Below are positions 8,348 through 48,285 of a DNA stretch of 64,000 nucleotides, in pieces. Location of the stretch: assembly GCF_009914755.1 (NCBI RefSeq), contig NC_060930.1; one strand, given 5' to 3'. Both the position numbers and the translations under genes were made by a program. The notes beneath the pieces are model-generated. The model did not search any database and had not been told where the DNA came from. It worked only from the letters and a program-made list of their open reading frames with translations. The number at the start of each line of letters is the position of its first letter. Positions within the stretch are counted from its first letter, which is position 1. Origin of the DNA: the human T2T-CHM13v2.0 reference genome, Homo sapiens.

Positions 8348-8682
8348 CTTAGTCTGTTCAGGTTTCTGTAATAAAATACTATCAAGTAGGTGGTTATACA
8401 CAACAGTTTATTACTCACAGTTCTGGAGGCTGGTATATTCAAGATCAGGACACCAGCAGATTCAGTGTCTGCTGAGGGACCACTTTCTTATAGATGGACA
8501 TCTTCTCCCTGGAACTTCATAGAGCAAAAGAGTCAAACAAGCTCTCTGGCATCCCTTTTATAAGTACACTAATACCATTCATGAGGGGATCACCAAAGGC
8601 CCCATCTTCTAATGTCATAACCTTAGGAGTTAGAATTTCAACTAACTTTTATGGGGGAGACATAAACATCCAGTCCATTGCA
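8348..8682 (-). mobile_element. MLT1A/MST-type MaLR LTR
   Basis: TCTTAGTCTGTTCAGG...CACAGTTCTGGAGGCTGG...AACATCCAGTCCATTGCA. Confidence 0.8.
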
Positions 8683-36199: not shown

Positions 36200-36348
36200 T
36201 TATCAAACAACTCCCAGATAGAAATAAACCTCAAAAGTTACCTGCAATTTCCAATTTCCATGCCTTCTGTTCATTCACAAGATCCTGGTAACTGACATTT
36301 ATATAGATAGGGCTGCTATGTGTCAGGTGTCAGAAATAAATTTTTCTA

Positions 36349-36752
<404 letters not shown>

Positions 36753-43469: not shown

Positions 43470-44074
43470 TTTTTTTAAATTTCATGCCTGTAAAATAAAG
43501 TCTGAAGTATGGGACAGGAGGTCATTTTACATTCTTGTTCCAAACAGTCTTTCCAGGCACATCTCCTGCCACTGCCTTCCAACCACTCTTGTCCTCCACC
43601 TCTTCTCAATTCTAATTCCCCCCATCTATTTTCTTTCCCAGACTAAATATGCATGTTCACTTCTCTAGTTCTTTGGAATTCCCTCTGGTAGAAAAGCTCT
43701 CCCTTTAAGTCCCACCCCACTGCATCATTTGTCAAAGCTCTACTCTTCTTTAAGGTCCAATTCAGATATCGAACCTTCTCTCTATATACACATACTCCAA
43801 TGTGGTCAGAATTTATTATCCATTCTTTTATGTTTCTATAGCCCTTCATTTATACATCTCTTCTAGCTTTGAAATCTCTGCCTTTTTGTTCATTGTGCTT
43901 ATTTTTCATTTATTCAACATTCATTCAAAAAATATTTATTGTCTACTATATTCCAGGTGCTGGTATCTGTTTTAAAAAGACAAACATAGGTTCCTCCACC
44001 ACTAAAACAGTCTTCTAAGTCCTCATGGAGTTCAGATTCTACTTGTAAGTTCTGAGTTTTTTGTATGTCAGTAT

Positions 44075-44453
44075 TGATAGGGACAGCAGACAGCCAAGGG
44101 ACCCTGGGGAAACCCTGGCTGCCTTCAAGCCTAAAACCAGACTGCTGGTCCCGGATGAAGGCTGCCCTTTCCTGACTGATTCTCCCTGCATAATGCCCAC
44201 CTACGCCCTGGGAGGACGGGGTGGAGCCTCGCGAAGTTCAGGCCGTTTGTAGGTGGAGGAGCCTGGCCTCCTCAGTTCCTGTGTGGTGACTTGGCATTCA
44301 ATCTGTGAGGCAGGAAACCTGCTATCAGGACTCTTTCTCACTTTGCTGAGAATTCCTCTTTCCTTTTTTTCTCTTCACCGAATAAACCCTATAATGTGTC
44401 TGTCTGCCTAAATTTTCCTGATCGTGTATTGAGAACCCGGTTTTTCTACAATA
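44075..44453 (+). mobile_element. MER48-like ERV1 solo LTR
   Basis: Starts TGATAGGGACAG, has AATAAA at about 44381, ends GAACCCGGTTTTTCTACAATA; 4-bp TSD GTAT. Confidence 0.8.
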
Positions 44454-44864
44454 GTATCACCTTCCCCAGTACCAAACAATTTCCTTCCTGTATAGAGCAG
44501 GCACTCTACAGCTATGACTGCCTGTTTCTCCTTTCCCTAGATATCCATTTGTCTAAAATTAACAAGGTGTAGGCACCAGAGGCGACAGAGGGCTCAGGTG
44601 TGGTGGGTTGGGTGGGGGCCCGCTGAACTGACCAGCGGCATTTCAGCTCATTTACCCCCACCCATCAAAACCCTGGAGCCAGGTCCGTTCAGCCGACCGT
44701 CACCATGACCAACGCAGATAGCGAGGGCGGAAACCTCCGCCACCAGCTGGACAGCAACAAACAGGACCTGAGCCTCAGCAACCTGGATGAAGACCCGGTC
44801 AAGGAGCTGGCTGCCCTTCCAAAGACTACCACACTGGATCTGTCTTGTAATAAATGACTATTGT

Positions 44865-45160
44865 GCCGGGCACGGTGGCTCACGCCTGTAATCCCAACAC
44901 TTTGAGAGGCCGAGGAGGACGGATCACCTGAGGTCAGAAGTTCAAGACCAGCCTGACCAACACGGAGAAACCCTGTCTCTACTAAAATACAAAAAAAATT
45001 TGCCAGGCGTGGTGGTGCATGCCTGTAATTCCAGCTACTCGGGAGGCTGAGGCAGGAGAATCGCTCTAACCTGGGAGGCCGAGGTTGCAGTGAGCCGAGA
45101 TTGCGCATTGCACTCCAGCCTGGGCAACAAGAGTGAAACTCCATCTCAAAAAAATAAATA
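44865..45160 (+). mobile_element. AluS (Sp/Sq-like) inside the LRRC59 pseudogene
   Basis: TSD core AATGACTATT at 44853-44862 and 45160-45169. Confidence 0.94.
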
Positions 45161-45822
45161 ATGACTATTCTCCCGTCGGATTTCTGTGGCCTCACACACC
45201 TGGCGAAGCTAGACCTTAGAAAGAACAAGCCGCAGCACCCACCAGCAGACTTGGGCCGTTTGGTCAACCTCCAGCACCTGGCTCTCCTCAACAACAGGCT
45301 GGTCACCTTGTCGTCAGCTTTGCTCAGCTGAAGAACCTGAAGTGGCTGGACCTGAAGAATAACCTCTGGATCCCGGCCTGGCCAAGGTGGCAGGTGATTG
45401 CTTGGGTGAGAAGCCATGGAAACAGCATGCAAACAAGGCATCACAACACATGAAGGCTGTACAGACAGACCACAAGTGGGAGAGGCAGCAGGGTTGGAAG
45501 TAGAACGAGAGGCAGAGAAGTATGAGGCAAAGCAGCGAGCTAAGGAAGCTCAGGAGAGGAAATGCGGAAGCGGGAGAAGGCAGAGGAGAAAGAGTGCCAG
45601 AGAAAGGAGTATGATGCCCTCAAAGCAGCCAAGCGGGAGCAGATCATACCTACCAAGGAAACAAATTAGGCCCCCAAATCTAAGTCCGAATCCTGCCCCT
45701 GCAAGCCACTCCCCCGGAAGCACACTCGTTTCTGGGCTGTGCTGAAACTGCTGCTGCTGCTGCTTTGTGCAGCGGGGGCGCTGGTTGCTTGTCAGGTGAC
45801 ACAGCTACAGCAGCTGCCCCTT

Positions 45823-47433
45823 TGTGTCCGGAATAATGGGTTCTTGGTCTTGCTGACTTCCAGAATGAAGCTGCGGACCCTCGCGGTGAGTGTTACAGTT
45901 CTTAAAGATGGTGTGTCCAGAGTTTGTGCTTTCAGATGTTCAGATGCGTCCGGAGTTTCTTCCTTCTGGTGGGTTTGTGGTCTCACTGACTTAAGAAGTG
46001 AGGCGCAGACCTTTGCTGTGAGTGTTACAGCTCTTAAAGACAGCGCATCTGGAGTTGTTTGTTCCTCATGTCCGGAGTTGTTGGTCCCTCCCAATGCGTT
46101 TGTTCGTCCCTCCCAATGCGTTTGTTCGTAGTCTCACTGGCTTCAGGAGTGAAGATGCAGACCTTCACGGTGAGTGTTATAGCTCATAAAGGCGGCGTAG
46201 ACCCAAAGAGTGAGCAGCAGTAAGATTTATTGCAAACAGAGAAAGAACAAAGCTTCCACAGCACAAAAGGGGACCTGACCGGGTTGCTGCTGCTAGCTCG
46301 GGCAGCCTGCTTTTATTCCCTTATCTGGCCCCACCCACATCCTGATGATTCGTCCATTTTACAGAGAGCTGATTGGTCCGTTTTGACAGGGTCCTGATTG
46401 GTGCATTTACAATCCCTGACCTAGACACAGAGTGCTGATTGGTATACTTACAATCCTCTAGCTAGACATAAAAGTTCTCCAAGTCCCCACTAGATTAGCT
46501 AGACACAGAGCACTGATTGGTGTGTTTACAAACCTTGAGCTAGACACAGAGTGCTGACTGGTACGTTTACAAACCTTGAGCTAGACACAGAGTGCTGATT
46601 GCTGCATTTACAAACCTTGAGCTAGACACAGAGTGCTGATTGCTGCATTTACAATCCTTTAGCTAGCCATAAAAGTTCTCCAAGTCCCCACCAGATTAGC
46701 TAGATACAGAGTGCTGATTGGTGCATCCACAAACCCCGAGCTAGACACAGAGTGCTGATTGGTGCATATACAATCCTCCAGCTAGACATAAAAGTTCTCC
46801 AAATCCCCACCCAACTCAGGAGCCCAGCTGGCTTCGCCTAGTGGATCCCACGCCAGGACCACGGGTGGAGCTGCCCACCAGTCACCCACCCACACTCCTC
46901 AACCCTTGGCGATGGGACCAGGCACTGTGGAGCAGGCGGCGGTGCCCGTCAGGGAGGCTCGGACCATGTGGGAGCCCACCGCGTGGGGGCTCAGGCATGG
47001 CAGGCTGCAGGTCCTGAGCCCTGCCCCATGGGGAGGTGGCTGAGGCCTGGTAAGAATTCAAGCCGGGTGCGGACAAGCCAGCAGTGCTGGGGGACCCGGT
47101 GCCCCCTCCACAGCTACTGGCCCGGATGCTAAGCCCCTCATTGCCCAGCGCCAGTGGCGCTGGCAGGCTGCTCTGAGTGCGGGGCCTGCCGAGCCCGCGC
47201 CCACCTGGAACTGGTGCTGGCCCGCGAGCACGCAGCCCTGGTTGCCACCCGCGCCTCTCCTTCCACACCTCCCTGCACGCAAAGGGAGCCAGCTCCAGCT
47301 TCTGCCAGCCCAGAGAGGGGTTCCCACAGTGCAGCGGTGGGCTGAAGGGCTCCTCAAGTGCGGCCAGAGCAGATGCCAAGGCCGAGGAGGCACCAAGAGC
47401 AAGTGAGGGCTGCTAGCACATTGTCACCTCTCA
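45823..47433 (-). mobile_element. LTR12 (ERV9) solo LTR, full length, 1611 bp
   Basis: Minus strand starts TGAGAGGTGACAATGTGCTAGCAGCCC and ends TTCCGGACACA; 4-bp TSD CCTT at 45819-45822 and 47434-47437. Confidence 0.96.
46285..46800 (-). promoter_or_regulatory. LTR12 U3 enhancer repeats and core promoter, pointing leftwards
   Basis: About 7 GCTAGACACAGAGTGCTGATTGG units; 6 intact CCAAT boxes (46372, 46397, 46438, 46516, 46717, 46758); AGATAA at 46321-46326; AATAAAAG TATA-like at 46310-46317. Confidence 0.75.
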
Positions 47434-48064
47434 CCTTTGCACCAGCGTGAACACCATCTGTGACAATGTGGTCCAGGGTCTGCACCACCATGAGATCCTC
47501 CAGACCGACTCTCAGCAGTGAGCTTGTCCCCAGCACCTGCTGCCTCCCAGCCTTGGAGCTTGGATTCCTATGGAATTGGGCTCTGCTGGACACAAACTCT
47601 TTTTAGCATCAGACCTACCTGCCATCATCAAATGGCTGCTGATTGGTACTTGAGACCTCCTCTTTGTAGGACTTCTTCATTCCTTAGTCAGGGTTTCCTG
47701 GTGGAATGAGGAGAAATGGGAGGTGGTGGGGGACAGTTACCTGCATGCCTAAAGGAATAGGCTTGGGGGTGGGGAGAAAGAAAACATAGCCATTTCTAGT
47801 TGTTACACAAAGCTGTGTAAAGGCTCATTTCTACTAAATGGTCAGCTGTCACCAAAAAAAAAAAAAAGTGTCATGAGACCTTTATGAAACATGCCAATAG
47901 GGTATGGGAATTATCTAACTATTTTGAAGGAATCTAAGTAATTAAACAAAAAATGCCACTGTCCTAACTAATAGCAGTTAACCAACTCATAATAGGAGTC
48001 ACCCAGAGAATTTTTTATCATCTAGAAGTAATGGCTTGTTTCATTACTGGATGATGATGCCTCT

Positions 48065-48285
48065 CGAGTCTTTATTATGCACCAGGCACTGTCTGAGAGC
48101 TTTCAGTATTCACTCATTTAATCTTCTCAACAACTCTAAGTAGTATGTTATCTCTTTTTCAAAAAAAAAATAGATATGGAAACAGAAAGATGAGTTAAAT
48201 TCTTTGCCCAAGATAACAAAACTGGCAAGGGATGGAGCTGGCATTTGAACTCAGGGAGGCTAGCTTCAAATTCTGTGTTCTCCAC
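48065..48285 (-). mobile_element. MIR
   Basis: CACTCATTTAATCTTCTCAACAAC...GGAGCTGGCATTTGAACTCAGG. Confidence 0.75.

What the first reader, a model, noticed from the sequence alone, without database searches (positions are those of the whole stretch)
44075..47433. LRRC59 retrocopy between convergent retroviral promoters: candidate inducible antisense/dsRNA cassette
Seen: a sense MER48-like LTR ends about 120 bp upstream of the pseudogene 5'UTR. A complete LTR12 sits inside the CDS in antisense orientation, with its core promoter (about 46285-46330) facing back across about 950 nt of LRRC59-homologous sequence including the start codon. Known: LTR12 elements are NF-Y-dependent promoters active in germ cells and de-repressed by HDAC/DNMT inhibitors; pseudogene antisense RNAs can yield endo-siRNAs against parent genes; LRRC59 is an ER membrane protein linked to TLR trafficking and interferon signalling. 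Inference: LTR12 activation would give an anti-LRRC59 RNA, and MER48 activity would add cis dsRNA. Caveats: the promoter-proximal CCAAT is mutated (ATTCG at 46348-46352) and the copy is clearly diverged from the parent.
Basis: partly seen in the sequence, partly recalled or inferred. Interest (0 to 1): 0.7.

Follow-up and report, generated by a model that had tools for sequence, protein, structure and literature searches.

The report
Solo LTR12 promoter inside LRRC59 pseudogene
An old, dead copy of the LRRC59 gene was later split by a retroviral LTR12 remnant that public gene models use as a far-upstream start site for the lens gene LGSN, an ordinary kind of co-option rather than a double-stranded-RNA device.

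Summary
An intronless LRRC59 retrocopy (44573-47852, +) is broken by an Alu (44863-45159). It is also broken by a complete solo LTR of the ERV9/LTR12 family (45823-47433, minus sense, 1611 bp, 4-bp target duplication). The LTR has the long form with the ~600-nt 5' extension (LTR12C/D/E). It sits nearer a named LTR12D than six named LTR12C copies. Print limits that form to hominoids (about 20 My or less), and this copy looks old within the range. The upstream LTR (44075-44453, +) is a real solo LTR with a 4-bp duplication, but it shows no similarity to a named MER48 copy. One starts in the LTR12 core promoter (46322), crosses 169 nt of retrocopy antisense, and splices out at 45654 to LGSN exons, 122 kb above the normal LGSN start. 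A second first exon covers 45656-45243. Neither reaches the retrocopy ATG. The first holds 0 of 151 perfect 21-mers against LRRC59 mRNA and the second 32 of 394. No plus-strand transcript is annotated. Best reading: an LTR12-derived alternative LGSN promoter. The dsRNA cassette is unsupported.

The parts
44075..44453 (+). Upstream solo LTR of an unnamed, old ERV family (379 bp). It has a TG start and a decayed CA end. A 4-bp target duplication GTAT lies at 44071-44074 and 44454-44457. A polyadenylation signal lies at 44381. It is not the MER48 family by comparison with a named copy.
   Evidence: 828 first-look candidates, 40 scored, 39 non-self rows at 72-86% identity; two same-strand pairs lie 4.7 and 5.9 kb apart; edges in register with 8 other copies; a clean 4-bp duplication in this copy and in 4 of those 8; the signal is on the + strand only here, and at the aligned place in 7 of 8 other copies; no match to the EVADR MER48 copy.
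44573..44862 (+). LRRC59 processed pseudogene, piece A. It covers the parent 5'UTR, the ATG at 44705, exon 1 and most of exon 2. The frame from the ATG closes after 50 codons. RefSeq's LOC642554 does not include this piece.
   Evidence: aligns to spliced parent 80-363, 83% identity; translation.
44863..45159 (+). Alu with an A-rich tail inserted in the retrocopy. It is flanked by a 10-nt exact direct repeat (44853-44862 and 45160-45169). The S-type call is from recall only.
   Evidence: 80-84% identity to Alus in the LRRC59 introns; edges.
45160..45822 (+). LRRC59 processed pseudogene, piece B. It covers the end of exon 2 through the first part of exon 7, with no introns. It ends with the left copy of the LTR12 target duplication, CCTT at 45819-45822.
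   Evidence: spliced parent 351-1036, 86% identity.
45823..47433 (-). Complete solo LTR of ERV9, LTR12 family, long form (C/D/E), tentatively LTR12D-like; 1611 bp. In LTR sense it holds: a 5' extension at 47433-46814; 41-nt U3 repeats x10 at 46788-46386; a core promoter at 46336-46286; a polyadenylation signal at 46231-46226; three ~75-nt U5 repeats at 46198-45840.
   Evidence: end-to-end match to named LTR12C copies; repeats; motifs; U5 repeats; termini and 4-bp duplication as in named copies; distances and clustering; no copy closer than 85% overall or 82% in the extension among those scored.
47434..47852 (+). LRRC59 processed pseudogene, piece C. It covers the last ~100 nt of the CDS plus 346 nt of the 3'UTR. 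It starts with the right copy of the duplication, CCTT at 47434-47437. It is much less diverged than pieces A and B.
   Evidence: spliced parent 1031-1476; 21 mismatches of 419.
47853..47868 (+). Poly(A) tail of the retrocopy.
   Evidence: it follows the last aligned parent base.
45654..46322 (-). First exon of the predicted LGSN mRNA XM_054355589.1. It has 500 nt of LTR12 (from LTR position 1112) and then 169 nt antisense to the retrocopy. The donor at 45654 joins to 8514.
   Evidence: annotation; GT donor, AG acceptor; the 5' end lies 19-53 nt from the homologous annotated starts of 5 of 6 named LTR12C-driven genes.
45243..45656 (-). First exon of the predicted LGSN mRNA XM_054355588.1, wholly antisense to retrocopy piece B. 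The donor at 45243 joins to 8514. Whether it has its own start or is a 5'-incomplete read-on from the LTR12 is unknown.
8419..8514 (-). Second exon shared by the three long predicted LGSN models.

Best explanation
**History of the locus, from nesting**
- An LRRC59 mRNA was retro-copied into this site.
- An Alu later landed in the retrocopy.
- An ERV9 provirus then integrated in its coding part, in the opposite sense. It later collapsed to a solo LTR12.

**What the LTR is**
- It is a complete long-form LTR12, of the C/D/E type with the 5' extension.
- It is probably LTR12D-like and of hominoid age.

**What the LTR does**
- It points the same way as LGSN and lies 122 kb above LGSN's normal start.
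- Its core promoter supplies a start site.
- The RNA runs through R-U5 into the antisense strand of the dead LRRC59 copy.
- Two GT donors there (45654, 45243) join it to LGSN exons. At both sites the retrocopy differs from the parent sequence.
- The models' coding part begins at a later exon than in the canonical mRNA.
- The LTR12 is therefore a distal alternative LGSN promoter. The pseudogene serves as raw material for a 5' non-coding exon.
- By analogy with the family, I infer use mainly in germ cells or early embryo. I also infer use after loss of epigenetic silencing, as in tumours or with HDAC/DNMT inhibitors.

**Shown and inferred**
- Shown: the anatomy, family, orientation, annotated exon structure and splice signals.
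- Inferred: actual promoter use, tissue pattern and NF-Y dependence.
- The antisense overlap with LRRC59-like sequence is most likely a by-product.
For: **Retrocopy**
- The seven parent exon blocks lie contiguous without introns, followed by a poly(A) tail.
- The parent exon model gives the expected 307-aa ORF.

**LTR12 identity**
- End-to-end alignment (1-1609) to the named LTR12C copies at IRGM and GBP2. Near-full alignment to GBP5, ZNF80, LINC01419 and PGPEP1L.
- 41-nt repeats x10.0.
- 6 CCAAT, 3 GTGGGGA and 6 GATA-type motifs.
- AATAAAA at 69% of the length, with a GC box 19 nt upstream.
- Three ~75-nt U5 repeats.
- TG..CA ends and a 4-bp duplication, as in 3 of 6 named copies cleanly and 1 of 6 at 3/4.
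- These are the features listed in PMC11853044 (sections 3 and 5 read).

**Solo state**
- Both flanks continue the same parent sequence.

**Promoter use**
- XM_054355589.1 starts at LTR position 1112.
- The annotated 5' ends of 5 of 6 named LTR12C-driven genes map to positions 1131-1165 of this LTR, on the same strand.
- The GT donors and AG acceptor are present.
- At both donors the retrocopy differs from the parent.

**Family behaviour, from print**
- LTR12 alternative promoters, NF-Y and HDAC-inhibitor response: PMC11853044, sections 3, 5 and 7.
- The 5' extension marks LTR12C/D/E, is almost exclusive to hominoids, and its presence coincides with these subfamilies acting as drivers of chimeric transcripts. 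LTR12C is the most frequent source of such transcripts in testis, and its oocyte profile confirms earlier work: PMC8767690, passages.
Against: - Both LGSN models are Gnomon predictions. I could see no reads, CAGE data or ESTs.
- RefSeq lists no promoter, CAGE cluster or enhancer at 44000-48000.
- The model's 5' end lies 5 nt upstream of the AATAAAA box, not about 30 nt downstream of it as print describes.
- The published start-site inverted repeat is absent here. The pattern has 0 matches and the nearest relative has 3 mismatches.
- The CCAAT-type box nearest the core promoter is degenerate.
- The LTR's own polyadenylation signal (46231) must be read through.
- No paper in the searched library links LGSN with LTR12 or LTR.
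- LGSN is not among the loci of Table 1 of PMC11853044.
- The second model's 5' end (45656) lies outside the LTR.
Confidence: 0.7

Rival explanations
1. The two converging LTRs make sense and antisense RNA over the retrocopy. The duplex, or the antisense RNA pairing with LRRC59 mRNA, gives small RNAs or otherwise lowers LRRC59.
For: - The LTRs do converge.
- The annotated LGSN first exons are antisense to 169 and 414 nt of the retrocopy.
- The second exon shares 32 of 394 perfect 21-mers with spliced LRRC59, including a 41-nt perfect run.
- Pseudogene-derived endo-siRNAs are known from mouse oocytes (recalled, not checked here).
Against: - There are 0 of 151 perfect 21-mers in the retrocopy part of the exon that starts in the LTR.
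- The models splice out long before the ATG.
- Of the 154 perfect 21-mers, 106 lie in piece C, upstream of the LTR12 start.
- No plus-strand transcript or start is annotated.
- The upstream LTR is old (72-86% identity to its kin) and is not the MER48 family that print shows to have promoter activity.
- A plus-strand RNA would have to cross about 790 nt, including an Alu, to reach 45243.
- No Rfam family matches here.
- The retrocopy is 9.9% diverged, with 51 gap columns.
Confidence: 0.05
2. Inert remnant. The LTR12 is silenced everywhere that matters. The two LGSN models reflect a handful of stray reads or model-building artefacts and have no biological role.
For: - The models are predictions only.
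- There is no RefSeq functional element here.
- The start-site motif and the proximal box are degenerate.
- No paper mentions the link.
- The copy is strongly diverged from every scored relative: at most 85% overall and 82% in the extension.
Against: - The model's 5' end falls in the 54-nt zone of the 1611-nt LTR where 5 of 6 named LTR12C-driven genes start. That would be an odd coincidence for noise.
- Two separate canonical donors join the same downstream exon.
- The promoter-R-U5 part keeps 20 CpGs, third most of the 21 copies compared.
Confidence: 0.2
3. The LTR12 acts mainly as an enhancer or chromatin element for LGSN or a neighbour, and its transcripts are a side effect.
For: - LTR12 copies with multiple NF-Y/GATA-type repeats act as enhancers at the globin and AXIN1 loci (PMC11853044, Table 1 and passages from section 8).
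- This copy keeps 6 CCAAT and 6 GATA-type motifs.
Against: - No enhancer is annotated at the LTR.
- The nearest canonical promoter is 122 kb away.
- The annotated evidence is of a start site, not of enhancer marks.
Confidence: 0.1

Closest known systems
LTR12-derived alternative promoters of host genes (for example GBP2, DHRS2, TP63, ZFP90, SCIN; PMC11853044, Table 1 and section 7)
   Same: - It is a solo ERV9 LTR in the sense of the host gene.
- The start lies in the core promoter at about 70% of the LTR.
- The first exon is non-coding and spliced to downstream host exons.
- The native promoter is kept.
   Different: - It lies very far upstream (122 kb).
- The splice donors lie in the antisense strand of an unrelated processed pseudogene.
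- It rests on predicted models only.
- The start-site motif is degenerate.
- LGSN is not listed in print, as far as and Table 1 show.
LTR12D at DHRS2 (named copy, hg38 chr14:23635627-23636652 in PMC11853044 Table 1)
   Same: - It is the second-nearest of the 20 copies compared with this LTR in the promoter-R-U5 part (13.1% substitutions).
- Its own nearest relatives are the same copies that resemble this LTR.
   Different: - The DHRS2 copy is truncated. Only 186 nt of the 5' extension align.
- The assignment therefore rests on one named copy and on distances that differ by only a few percent.
Pseudogene antisense and endo-siRNA loci (mouse oocyte pseudogene siRNAs; PTENP1 antisense RNA), recalled and not checked here
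   Same: An RNA antisense to a processed pseudogene of an expressed parent gene is annotated.
   Different: - No sense partner, hairpin or small RNA is known here.
- The overlap is short, spliced out early and 10-14% diverged.
- The RNA is an LGSN 5' exon.
MER48 LTR promoter of the lncRNA EVADR (PMC4375928)
   Same: It is an old ERV-type solo LTR of about 380-390 bp lying upstream of a transcribed-looking unit. The window's LTR also has the 4-bp duplication that I recall as the class I habit.
   Different: - There is no detectable sequence similarity.
- The family size and divergence differ.
- No transcript is annotated from the window's LTR.

Membership tests
LTR12 (LTR of ERV9, class I) | Sequence similarity along the whole length to copies named LTR12 in print | tested here: met
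   query 1-1609 aligns to the IRGM LTR12C (1-1606) and GBP2 LTR12C (1-1609). GBP5 aligns over 18-1609. ZNF80, LINC01419 and PGPEP1L align in two pieces. LTR12D (DHRS2) and LTR12 (ADH1C) align in part.
LTR12 (LTR of ERV9, class I) | U3 tandem repeats of about 41 nt, 5-17 copies, carrying CCAAT, GATA-type and GTGGGGA motifs (PMC11853044, section 5 and Fig. 1 legend) | tested here: met
   period 41, 10.0 copies, 46386-46788; 6 CCAAT (shuffle mean 0.36, maximum 3 in 2000), 6 GATA-type and 3 GTGGGGA.
LTR12 (LTR of ERV9, class I) | AATAAAA box with an Sp1-type site just upstream, at about 70% of the LTR | tested here: met
   AATAAAA at LTR position 1117 of 1611 (69%); a GC box 19 nt upstream.
LTR12 (LTR of ERV9, class I) | Start-site motif with the inverted repeat GCCANNNNTGGC (described for active LTR12C loci) | tested here: not met
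   0 matches to the pattern. The nearest relative of the 12-nt motif, at the expected place, has 3 mismatches. Print gives this as a feature of active LTR12C copies, not of the whole family.
LTR12 (LTR of ERV9, class I) | U5 repeats of about 72 nt | tested here: met
   three copies of a 75-nt unit (60-76% identity to the reference copy) at 45840-46198.
LTR12 (LTR of ERV9, class I) | TG..CA termini and a short target duplication of the family's length | tested here: met
   this copy has the same termini as the named copies and a 4-bp duplication. There are 4-bp duplications in 3 of 6 named copies, 3/4 in 1 of 6 and none readable in 2 of 6; both flanks align to the same parent bases.
LTR12C/D/E (long form) | About 600-nt 5' extension (PMC8767690 passages; PMC11853044 section 5) | tested here: met
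   positions 1-620 align to all 6 named LTR12C copies and not to the ADH1C LTR12 ('no hit').
LTR12D as against LTR12C | Closer to named LTR12D than to named LTR12C copies | tested here: inconclusive
- In the extension, the 6 named LTR12C copies form their own cluster at k=3. This copy falls with 13 of the 14 copies found.
- In promoter-R-U5 the named LTR12D is second nearest (13.1%), but LTR12C copies follow at 14.4%.
- There was one named LTR12D only, no named LTR12E and no repeat library.
Co-opted LTR promoter of a host gene | Host transcript whose 5' end lies in the LTR core promoter, in LTR sense, spliced to host exons | tested here: met
   The evidence is predicted RefSeq models only.
Co-opted LTR promoter of a host gene | Measured start sites, expression pattern and factor binding | not testable with these tools
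Supplements of papers are closed and I did not ask for them.
MER48 (LTR of HERVH48, ERV1) | Sequence similarity to a copy named MER48 in print | tested here: not met
   the paper's primers place the EVADR MER48 LTR in L026, and blastn (word 7, E<=1e-3) gives no hit; nhmmer gives none at E<=10, and lax blastn gives only 12-33-nt chance hits with E>=0.3; the MER48 copy's own family is found at other places.
Pseudogene-derived dsRNA / endo-siRNA locus | Both strands transcribed over the same stretch, or a hairpin | tested here: not met
   only minus-strand models exist, with no plus-strand transcript or start annotated. Annotation is not expression data, so this is weak.
Pseudogene-derived dsRNA / endo-siRNA locus | Small RNAs mapping to the overlap; perfect matches to the parent mRNA | tested here: inconclusive
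   0 of 151 and 32 of 394 perfect 21-mers in the two antisense exon parts. Small-RNA data were not available.
Processed pseudogene (L1-mediated retrocopy) | Intronless copy of the spliced mRNA, poly(A) tail, disabled frame, flanking duplication | tested here: met
   all six junctions contiguous; tail; frame closes after 50 codons. The flanking duplication is only a degenerate 7-of-9 match read by eye, so it is inconclusive.

The most novel reading that the evidence does not exclude
- This hominoid-age LTR12 may be the switch behind the otherwise puzzling expression of lengsin outside the lens. Passages of PMC10447538 describe LGSN as lens-restricted in normal tissue yet a lung- and gastric-cancer antigen.
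- On loss of silencing, the LTR12 would drive LGSN from 122 kb upstream. It would use splice donors at sites where the antisense strand of the decaying LRRC59 pseudogene differs from the parent.
- The resulting mRNA's predicted coding part begins at a later exon.
- As a side product, the same RNA would carry up to 414 nt antisense to LRRC59.
Probability: 0.2. Interest if true: 0.5.

Novelty: new member of a known kind. Interest (0 to 1): 0.25.

Why it matters
- If the LTR12 start is really used, LGSN joins the list of genes with an ERV9-derived alternative promoter.
- This would give a concrete, checkable cause for tumour- or germline-restricted LGSN transcripts. LGSN is under study as a tumour antigen and target.
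- It also shows a decaying pseudogene supplying splice donors on its antisense strand.
- If the start is not used, the locus is an ordinary stack of nested repeats.
- Either way, the dsRNA cassette that earned the high first-stage score has little support.

Tried and rejected
**Leads followed and dropped**

1. The 6-bp target duplication. I first read CCTTTG from the blast overlap. I rejected it after comparing the edges of named copies. The LTR ends two bases further out and the duplication is 4 bp.

2. The MER48 name for the upstream LTR. I rejected it. I could not replace it with another name because no repeat library is at hand. Naming through inner genes is barred, so I stopped there.

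3. Absolute dating from pairwise distances.
- The six named LTR12C copies differ from each other by 8.3-10.3% at non-CpG sites.
- At a rate of about 1.2e-9 per site per year (recalled), that would give ages about twice the hominoid age that print gives to their form.
- Pairwise distance therefore includes diversity that predates insertion. I used it only as a relative measure.

4. CpG counts as a clock. This copy is mid-range in the extension (29) and high in promoter-R-U5 (20). That is not informative for age.

5. A closer sibling copy. None was found among the 40 scored of 4883 candidates or the 40 scored of 2723. Unscored candidates may hold closer ones.

6. Editing-type hypermutation as the cause of the uneven divergence. 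G>A (34) exceeds C>T (19) in pieces A and B, but the excess explains only about 1.6% of sites.

7. Rfam. There was no family at gathering score in 43800-48100.

8. Literature.
- LGSN + LTR12: 0 papers.
- LGSN + LTR: 3 papers. I read passages of one (PMC9380957), which did not link the two. The preprint of the same work and the third paper (PMC11975587) I saw only in the listing.
- LOC642554 / LRRC59P1 / 'LRRC59 pseudogene': 0 papers.
- A broad six-term search was badly designed and gave nothing on LGSN.
- The 2009 paper on lengsin splice variant 4 (PMC11158687) is not held.
- Lists of LTR12-driven transcripts in supplements (for example those of PMC8767690 and of the inhibitor studies) may name LGSN. 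Supplements are closed and I did not ask for them.

Full report
**What is there**

Reading 43800-48100 and aligning it to the LRRC59 gene on chr17 (L001 and L003) shows an intronless copy of LRRC59 mRNA on the + strand, from 44573 to 47852.
- All six exon junctions of the parent are contiguous in the copy.
- The exon model derived from it gives the expected 307-codon parent frame.
- A 16-nt A tail follows (47853-47868).
- The copy is in three pieces.
  - Piece A (44573-44862) holds the 5'UTR and the ATG at 44705. Its frame closes after 50 codons.
  - An Alu (44863-45159) follows, flanked by a 10-nt exact direct repeat.
  - Piece B (45160-45822) comes next.
  - Piece C (47434-47852) lies on the far side of a 1611-bp insert.
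- RefSeq's pseudogene LOC642554 starts only at 45157 and so omits piece A.
- Overall the copy differs from the parent at 134 of 1349 aligned bases (K2P 0.108), with 51 gap columns.

**The retroviral remnant: is it real, and of what family**

The insert at 45823-47433 is a complete solo LTR in minus sense.
- It aligns end to end with copies that print names LTR12C (PMC11853044, Table 1). The copies at IRGM and GBP2 align over 1-1606/1609. Those at GBP5, ZNF80, LINC01419 and PGPEP1L align nearly in full.
- It shows the family's published architecture (PMC11853044, sections 3 and 5, read in full).
  - A GC-rich 5' extension of about 620 nt.
  - Ten copies of a 41-nt U3 repeat, carrying 6 CCAAT, 6 GATA-type and 3 GTGGGGA motifs. 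CCAAT by shuffle has a mean of 0.36 and a maximum of 3.
  - A GC box and an AATAAAA box at 69% of the length.
  - A polyadenylation signal 86 nt further on.
  - Three ~75-nt U5 repeats.
- Its termini match those of the named copies. Like 3 of 6 of them cleanly, it has a 4-bp target duplication, CCTT at 45819-45822 and 47434-47437.
- Both flanks continue the same parent sequence. It is therefore a solo LTR inserted into an existing retrocopy, inside the former coding part.
- One published feature is not met. The inverted-repeat start-site motif of active LTR12C copies has no match, and its nearest relative at the expected place has 3 mismatches.

**Subfamily**

Print says the 5' extension marks LTR12C, D and E (PMC8767690, passages; PMC11853044, section 5).
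- Positions 1-620 align to all six named LTR12C copies and not to the named short LTR12 at ADH1C.
- On substitution-only distances in the extension, the six named LTR12C copies cluster together. Their median distance among themselves is 13.7%.
- This copy falls with 13 of the 14 copies that the genome search returned. Its median distance is 17.9% to them and 19.6% to the named LTR12C copies.
- In the promoter-R-U5 part, the single named LTR12D (DHRS2) is its second-nearest of 20 copies at 13.1%. That copy's own nearest relatives are the same group.
- I therefore call it LTR12D-like. The call is tentative. The margins are a few percent, and I had one named LTR12D, no named LTR12E and no repeat library.

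**Age**

- Nesting shows that the retrocopy predates both the Alu and the LTR12.
- From print, ERV9 entered about 30 My ago and stopped spreading about 6 My ago (PMC11853044, section 4). The 5' extension is almost exclusive to hominoids, expanding about 20 My ago (PMC8767690, passages).
- This copy has no close sibling. The best non-self identity is 85% over a partial match and 83% over the full length among 40 scored of 4883 candidates. In the extension it is 82% among 40 scored of 2723.
- At non-CpG sites it lies 12.3-13.1% from its group. The named LTR12C copies differ among themselves by 8.3-10.3%. That is 1.2-1.6 times as far.
- Pairwise distances overstate age, because the named LTR12C copies would come out about twice too old. 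I therefore use only the ratio.
- My estimate is the older part of the hominoid window, roughly 12-25 My, with low precision.
- The retrocopy's K2P of 0.108 suggests some 40-80 My, using recalled neutral rates of 1-2.2e-9 per site per year. The caveat under "An unexplained point" applies.

**The upstream LTR**

The stretch 44075-44453 (+) is a real solo LTR.
- The genome search gave 828 first-look candidates. The 39 non-self rows scored show 72-86% identity. Two same-strand pairs lie 4.7 and 5.9 kb apart, as LTR pairs do.
- Its edges are in register with eight other copies. A 4-bp duplication (GTAT) is present here and cleanly in 4 of the 8.
- A polyadenylation signal lies about 70 nt before the 3' end on the + strand, here and in 7 of the 8.
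- It is not MER48-like.
  - The MER48 LTR that drives the lncRNA EVADR was located in L026 with the paper's own primers (PMC4375928, passages).
  - It gives no blastn or nhmmer match to this LTR.
  - Its family is smaller and less diverged: 177 candidates at 84-89% identity.
- The 4-bp duplication is the class I habit, from recall. I cannot name the family without a repeat library or inner genes, and I stopped there.

RefSeq's annotation has seven LGSN mRNAs.
- Three start at the canonical site, window -76112.
- Three long Gnomon models share the exon 8419-8514 and differ in the first exon.
  - XM_054355589.1 uses 46322>45654.
  - XM_054355588.1 uses 45656>45243.
  - XM_054355590.1 uses 36403>36242.
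- The first of these begins at LTR position 1112, 5 nt upstream of the AATAAAA box.
- When the annotated 5' ends of the six named LTR12C-driven genes are placed on this LTR, 5 of 6 fall at positions 1131-1165 on the same strand. The LGSN model therefore starts in the family's start zone, 122,434 bp above the canonical LGSN start.
- The exon runs through 500 nt of LTR and then 169 nt antisense to piece B. It ends at a GT donor, and the acceptor before 8514 has its AG.
- At both donors (45654, 45243) the retrocopy differs from the parent sequence. On the minus strand the parent's bases there would not read GT.
- The models' coding part begins in a later exon than in NM_016571.3.
- These are predictions. 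I saw no reads. RefSeq lists no promoter, CAGE cluster or enhancer at 44000-48000.

**The dsRNA idea against these facts**

It never reaches the ATG.
- Against the spliced parent, the whole retrocopy holds 154 perfect 21-mers out of 1320 possible: 5 in piece A, 43 in piece B and 106 in piece C.
- The retrocopy part of the LTR-initiated exon holds 0 of 151. The second exon holds 32 of 394. Controls in the LTR and both flanks hold 0 of 4754.
- Piece C, which holds most of the matches, lies upstream of the LTR12 start.
- No plus-strand transcript is annotated.
- No Rfam family matches.
I rate the cassette at about 5%.

**An unexplained point**

- Pieces A and B differ from the parent at 113 of 930 sites (12.2%). 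Piece C differs at 21 of 419 (5.0%). Fisher p = 3e-5.
- The chr16 LRRC59 pseudogene (L002) served as outgroup.
  - Changes private to this copy are 10.8% in A, 7.9% in B and 2.8% in C.
  - Changes private to the chr16 copy are the same in B (13.6%) and C (13.3%).
- The effect therefore belongs to this locus.
- Candidate causes:
  - overwriting of piece C by the parent after the LTR split the homology;
  - constraint on piece C;
  - excess change in the transcribed pieces A and B.
- I could not decide between them, and this widens the age range of the retrocopy.

**Literature**

- No paper in the searched library holds both LGSN and LTR12.
- Three papers hold both LGSN and LTR. I read passages of one (PMC9380957), which did not link the two. 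The other two I saw only in the listing.
- No paper names LOC642554.
- Passages of PMC10447538 describe LGSN as lens-restricted in normal tissue but expressed in lung and gastric cancers. This is what makes the LTR12 start worth checking.
- General support for testis as the main site of repeat-derived starts comes from passages of PMC12963367.
- For PMC5085097 I saw only the listing and the start of the abstract.
- Supplements that may list LTR12-driven genes were not seen.

**Verdict**

- The remnant is real, complete, solo and of the ERV9/LTR12 long form, of hominoid age.
- The locus is best read as one more LTR12-derived alternative promoter, here for LGSN, with a pseudogene-derived first exon.
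- The antisense/dsRNA device is not supported.
- The MER48 label is wrong.

Noticed in passing
window 44573-45822 versus 47434-47852: The retrocopy's divergence from its parent is uneven: 12.2% in pieces A and B against 5.0% in piece C (Fisher p = 3e-5). The chr16 LRRC59 pseudogene shows no such difference between the same parts.
   Followed up: partly
window 44573-44862: RefSeq's LOC642554 (45157-47852) omits the 5' 290 nt of the retrocopy that lie before the Alu, including the former start codon.
   Followed up: yes
window 36242-36403 (minus): The first exon of the third long LGSN model, XM_054355590.1, begins inside an Alu that lies in antisense to the transcript. Of the three long LGSN models, the first exons of two begin inside a repeat (this Alu and the LTR12), and that of the third lies wholly in the retrocopy.
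   Followed up: partly
window 45654 and 45243 (minus): At both splice donors of the LTR12-linked first exons the retrocopy differs from the parent LRRC59 sequence. On the minus strand the parent's bases would not read GT there.
   Followed up: yes
window 46078-46129: There is a young-looking 22-nt tandem duplication (2.4 copies, 96% match) inside the U5 part of the LTR12. Each unit carries a CCAAT on the + strand, which is antisense to the LTR.
   Followed up: no
window 45823-46385 (promoter-R-U5 of the LTR12): This part keeps 20 CpGs, the third most of the 21 LTR12 copies compared. The 5' extension is only mid-range (29). This could hint at low germline methylation of the promoter part, or it could be chance.
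   Followed up: no
L002 (chr16:84111111-84112739): The second LRRC59 processed pseudogene (LOC100131126 region) is older. It has 13% private changes and 75-78% identity to the spliced parent. It aligns over parent positions 186-1479, which is more than the 629 bp that RefSeq annotates.
   Followed up: partly
L008 (chr14:17834743-17839743, DHRS2 region): Besides the named LTR12D, a second LTR12-like fragment lies about 1.06 kb downstream of it. The stretch between them was not examined.
   Followed up: no
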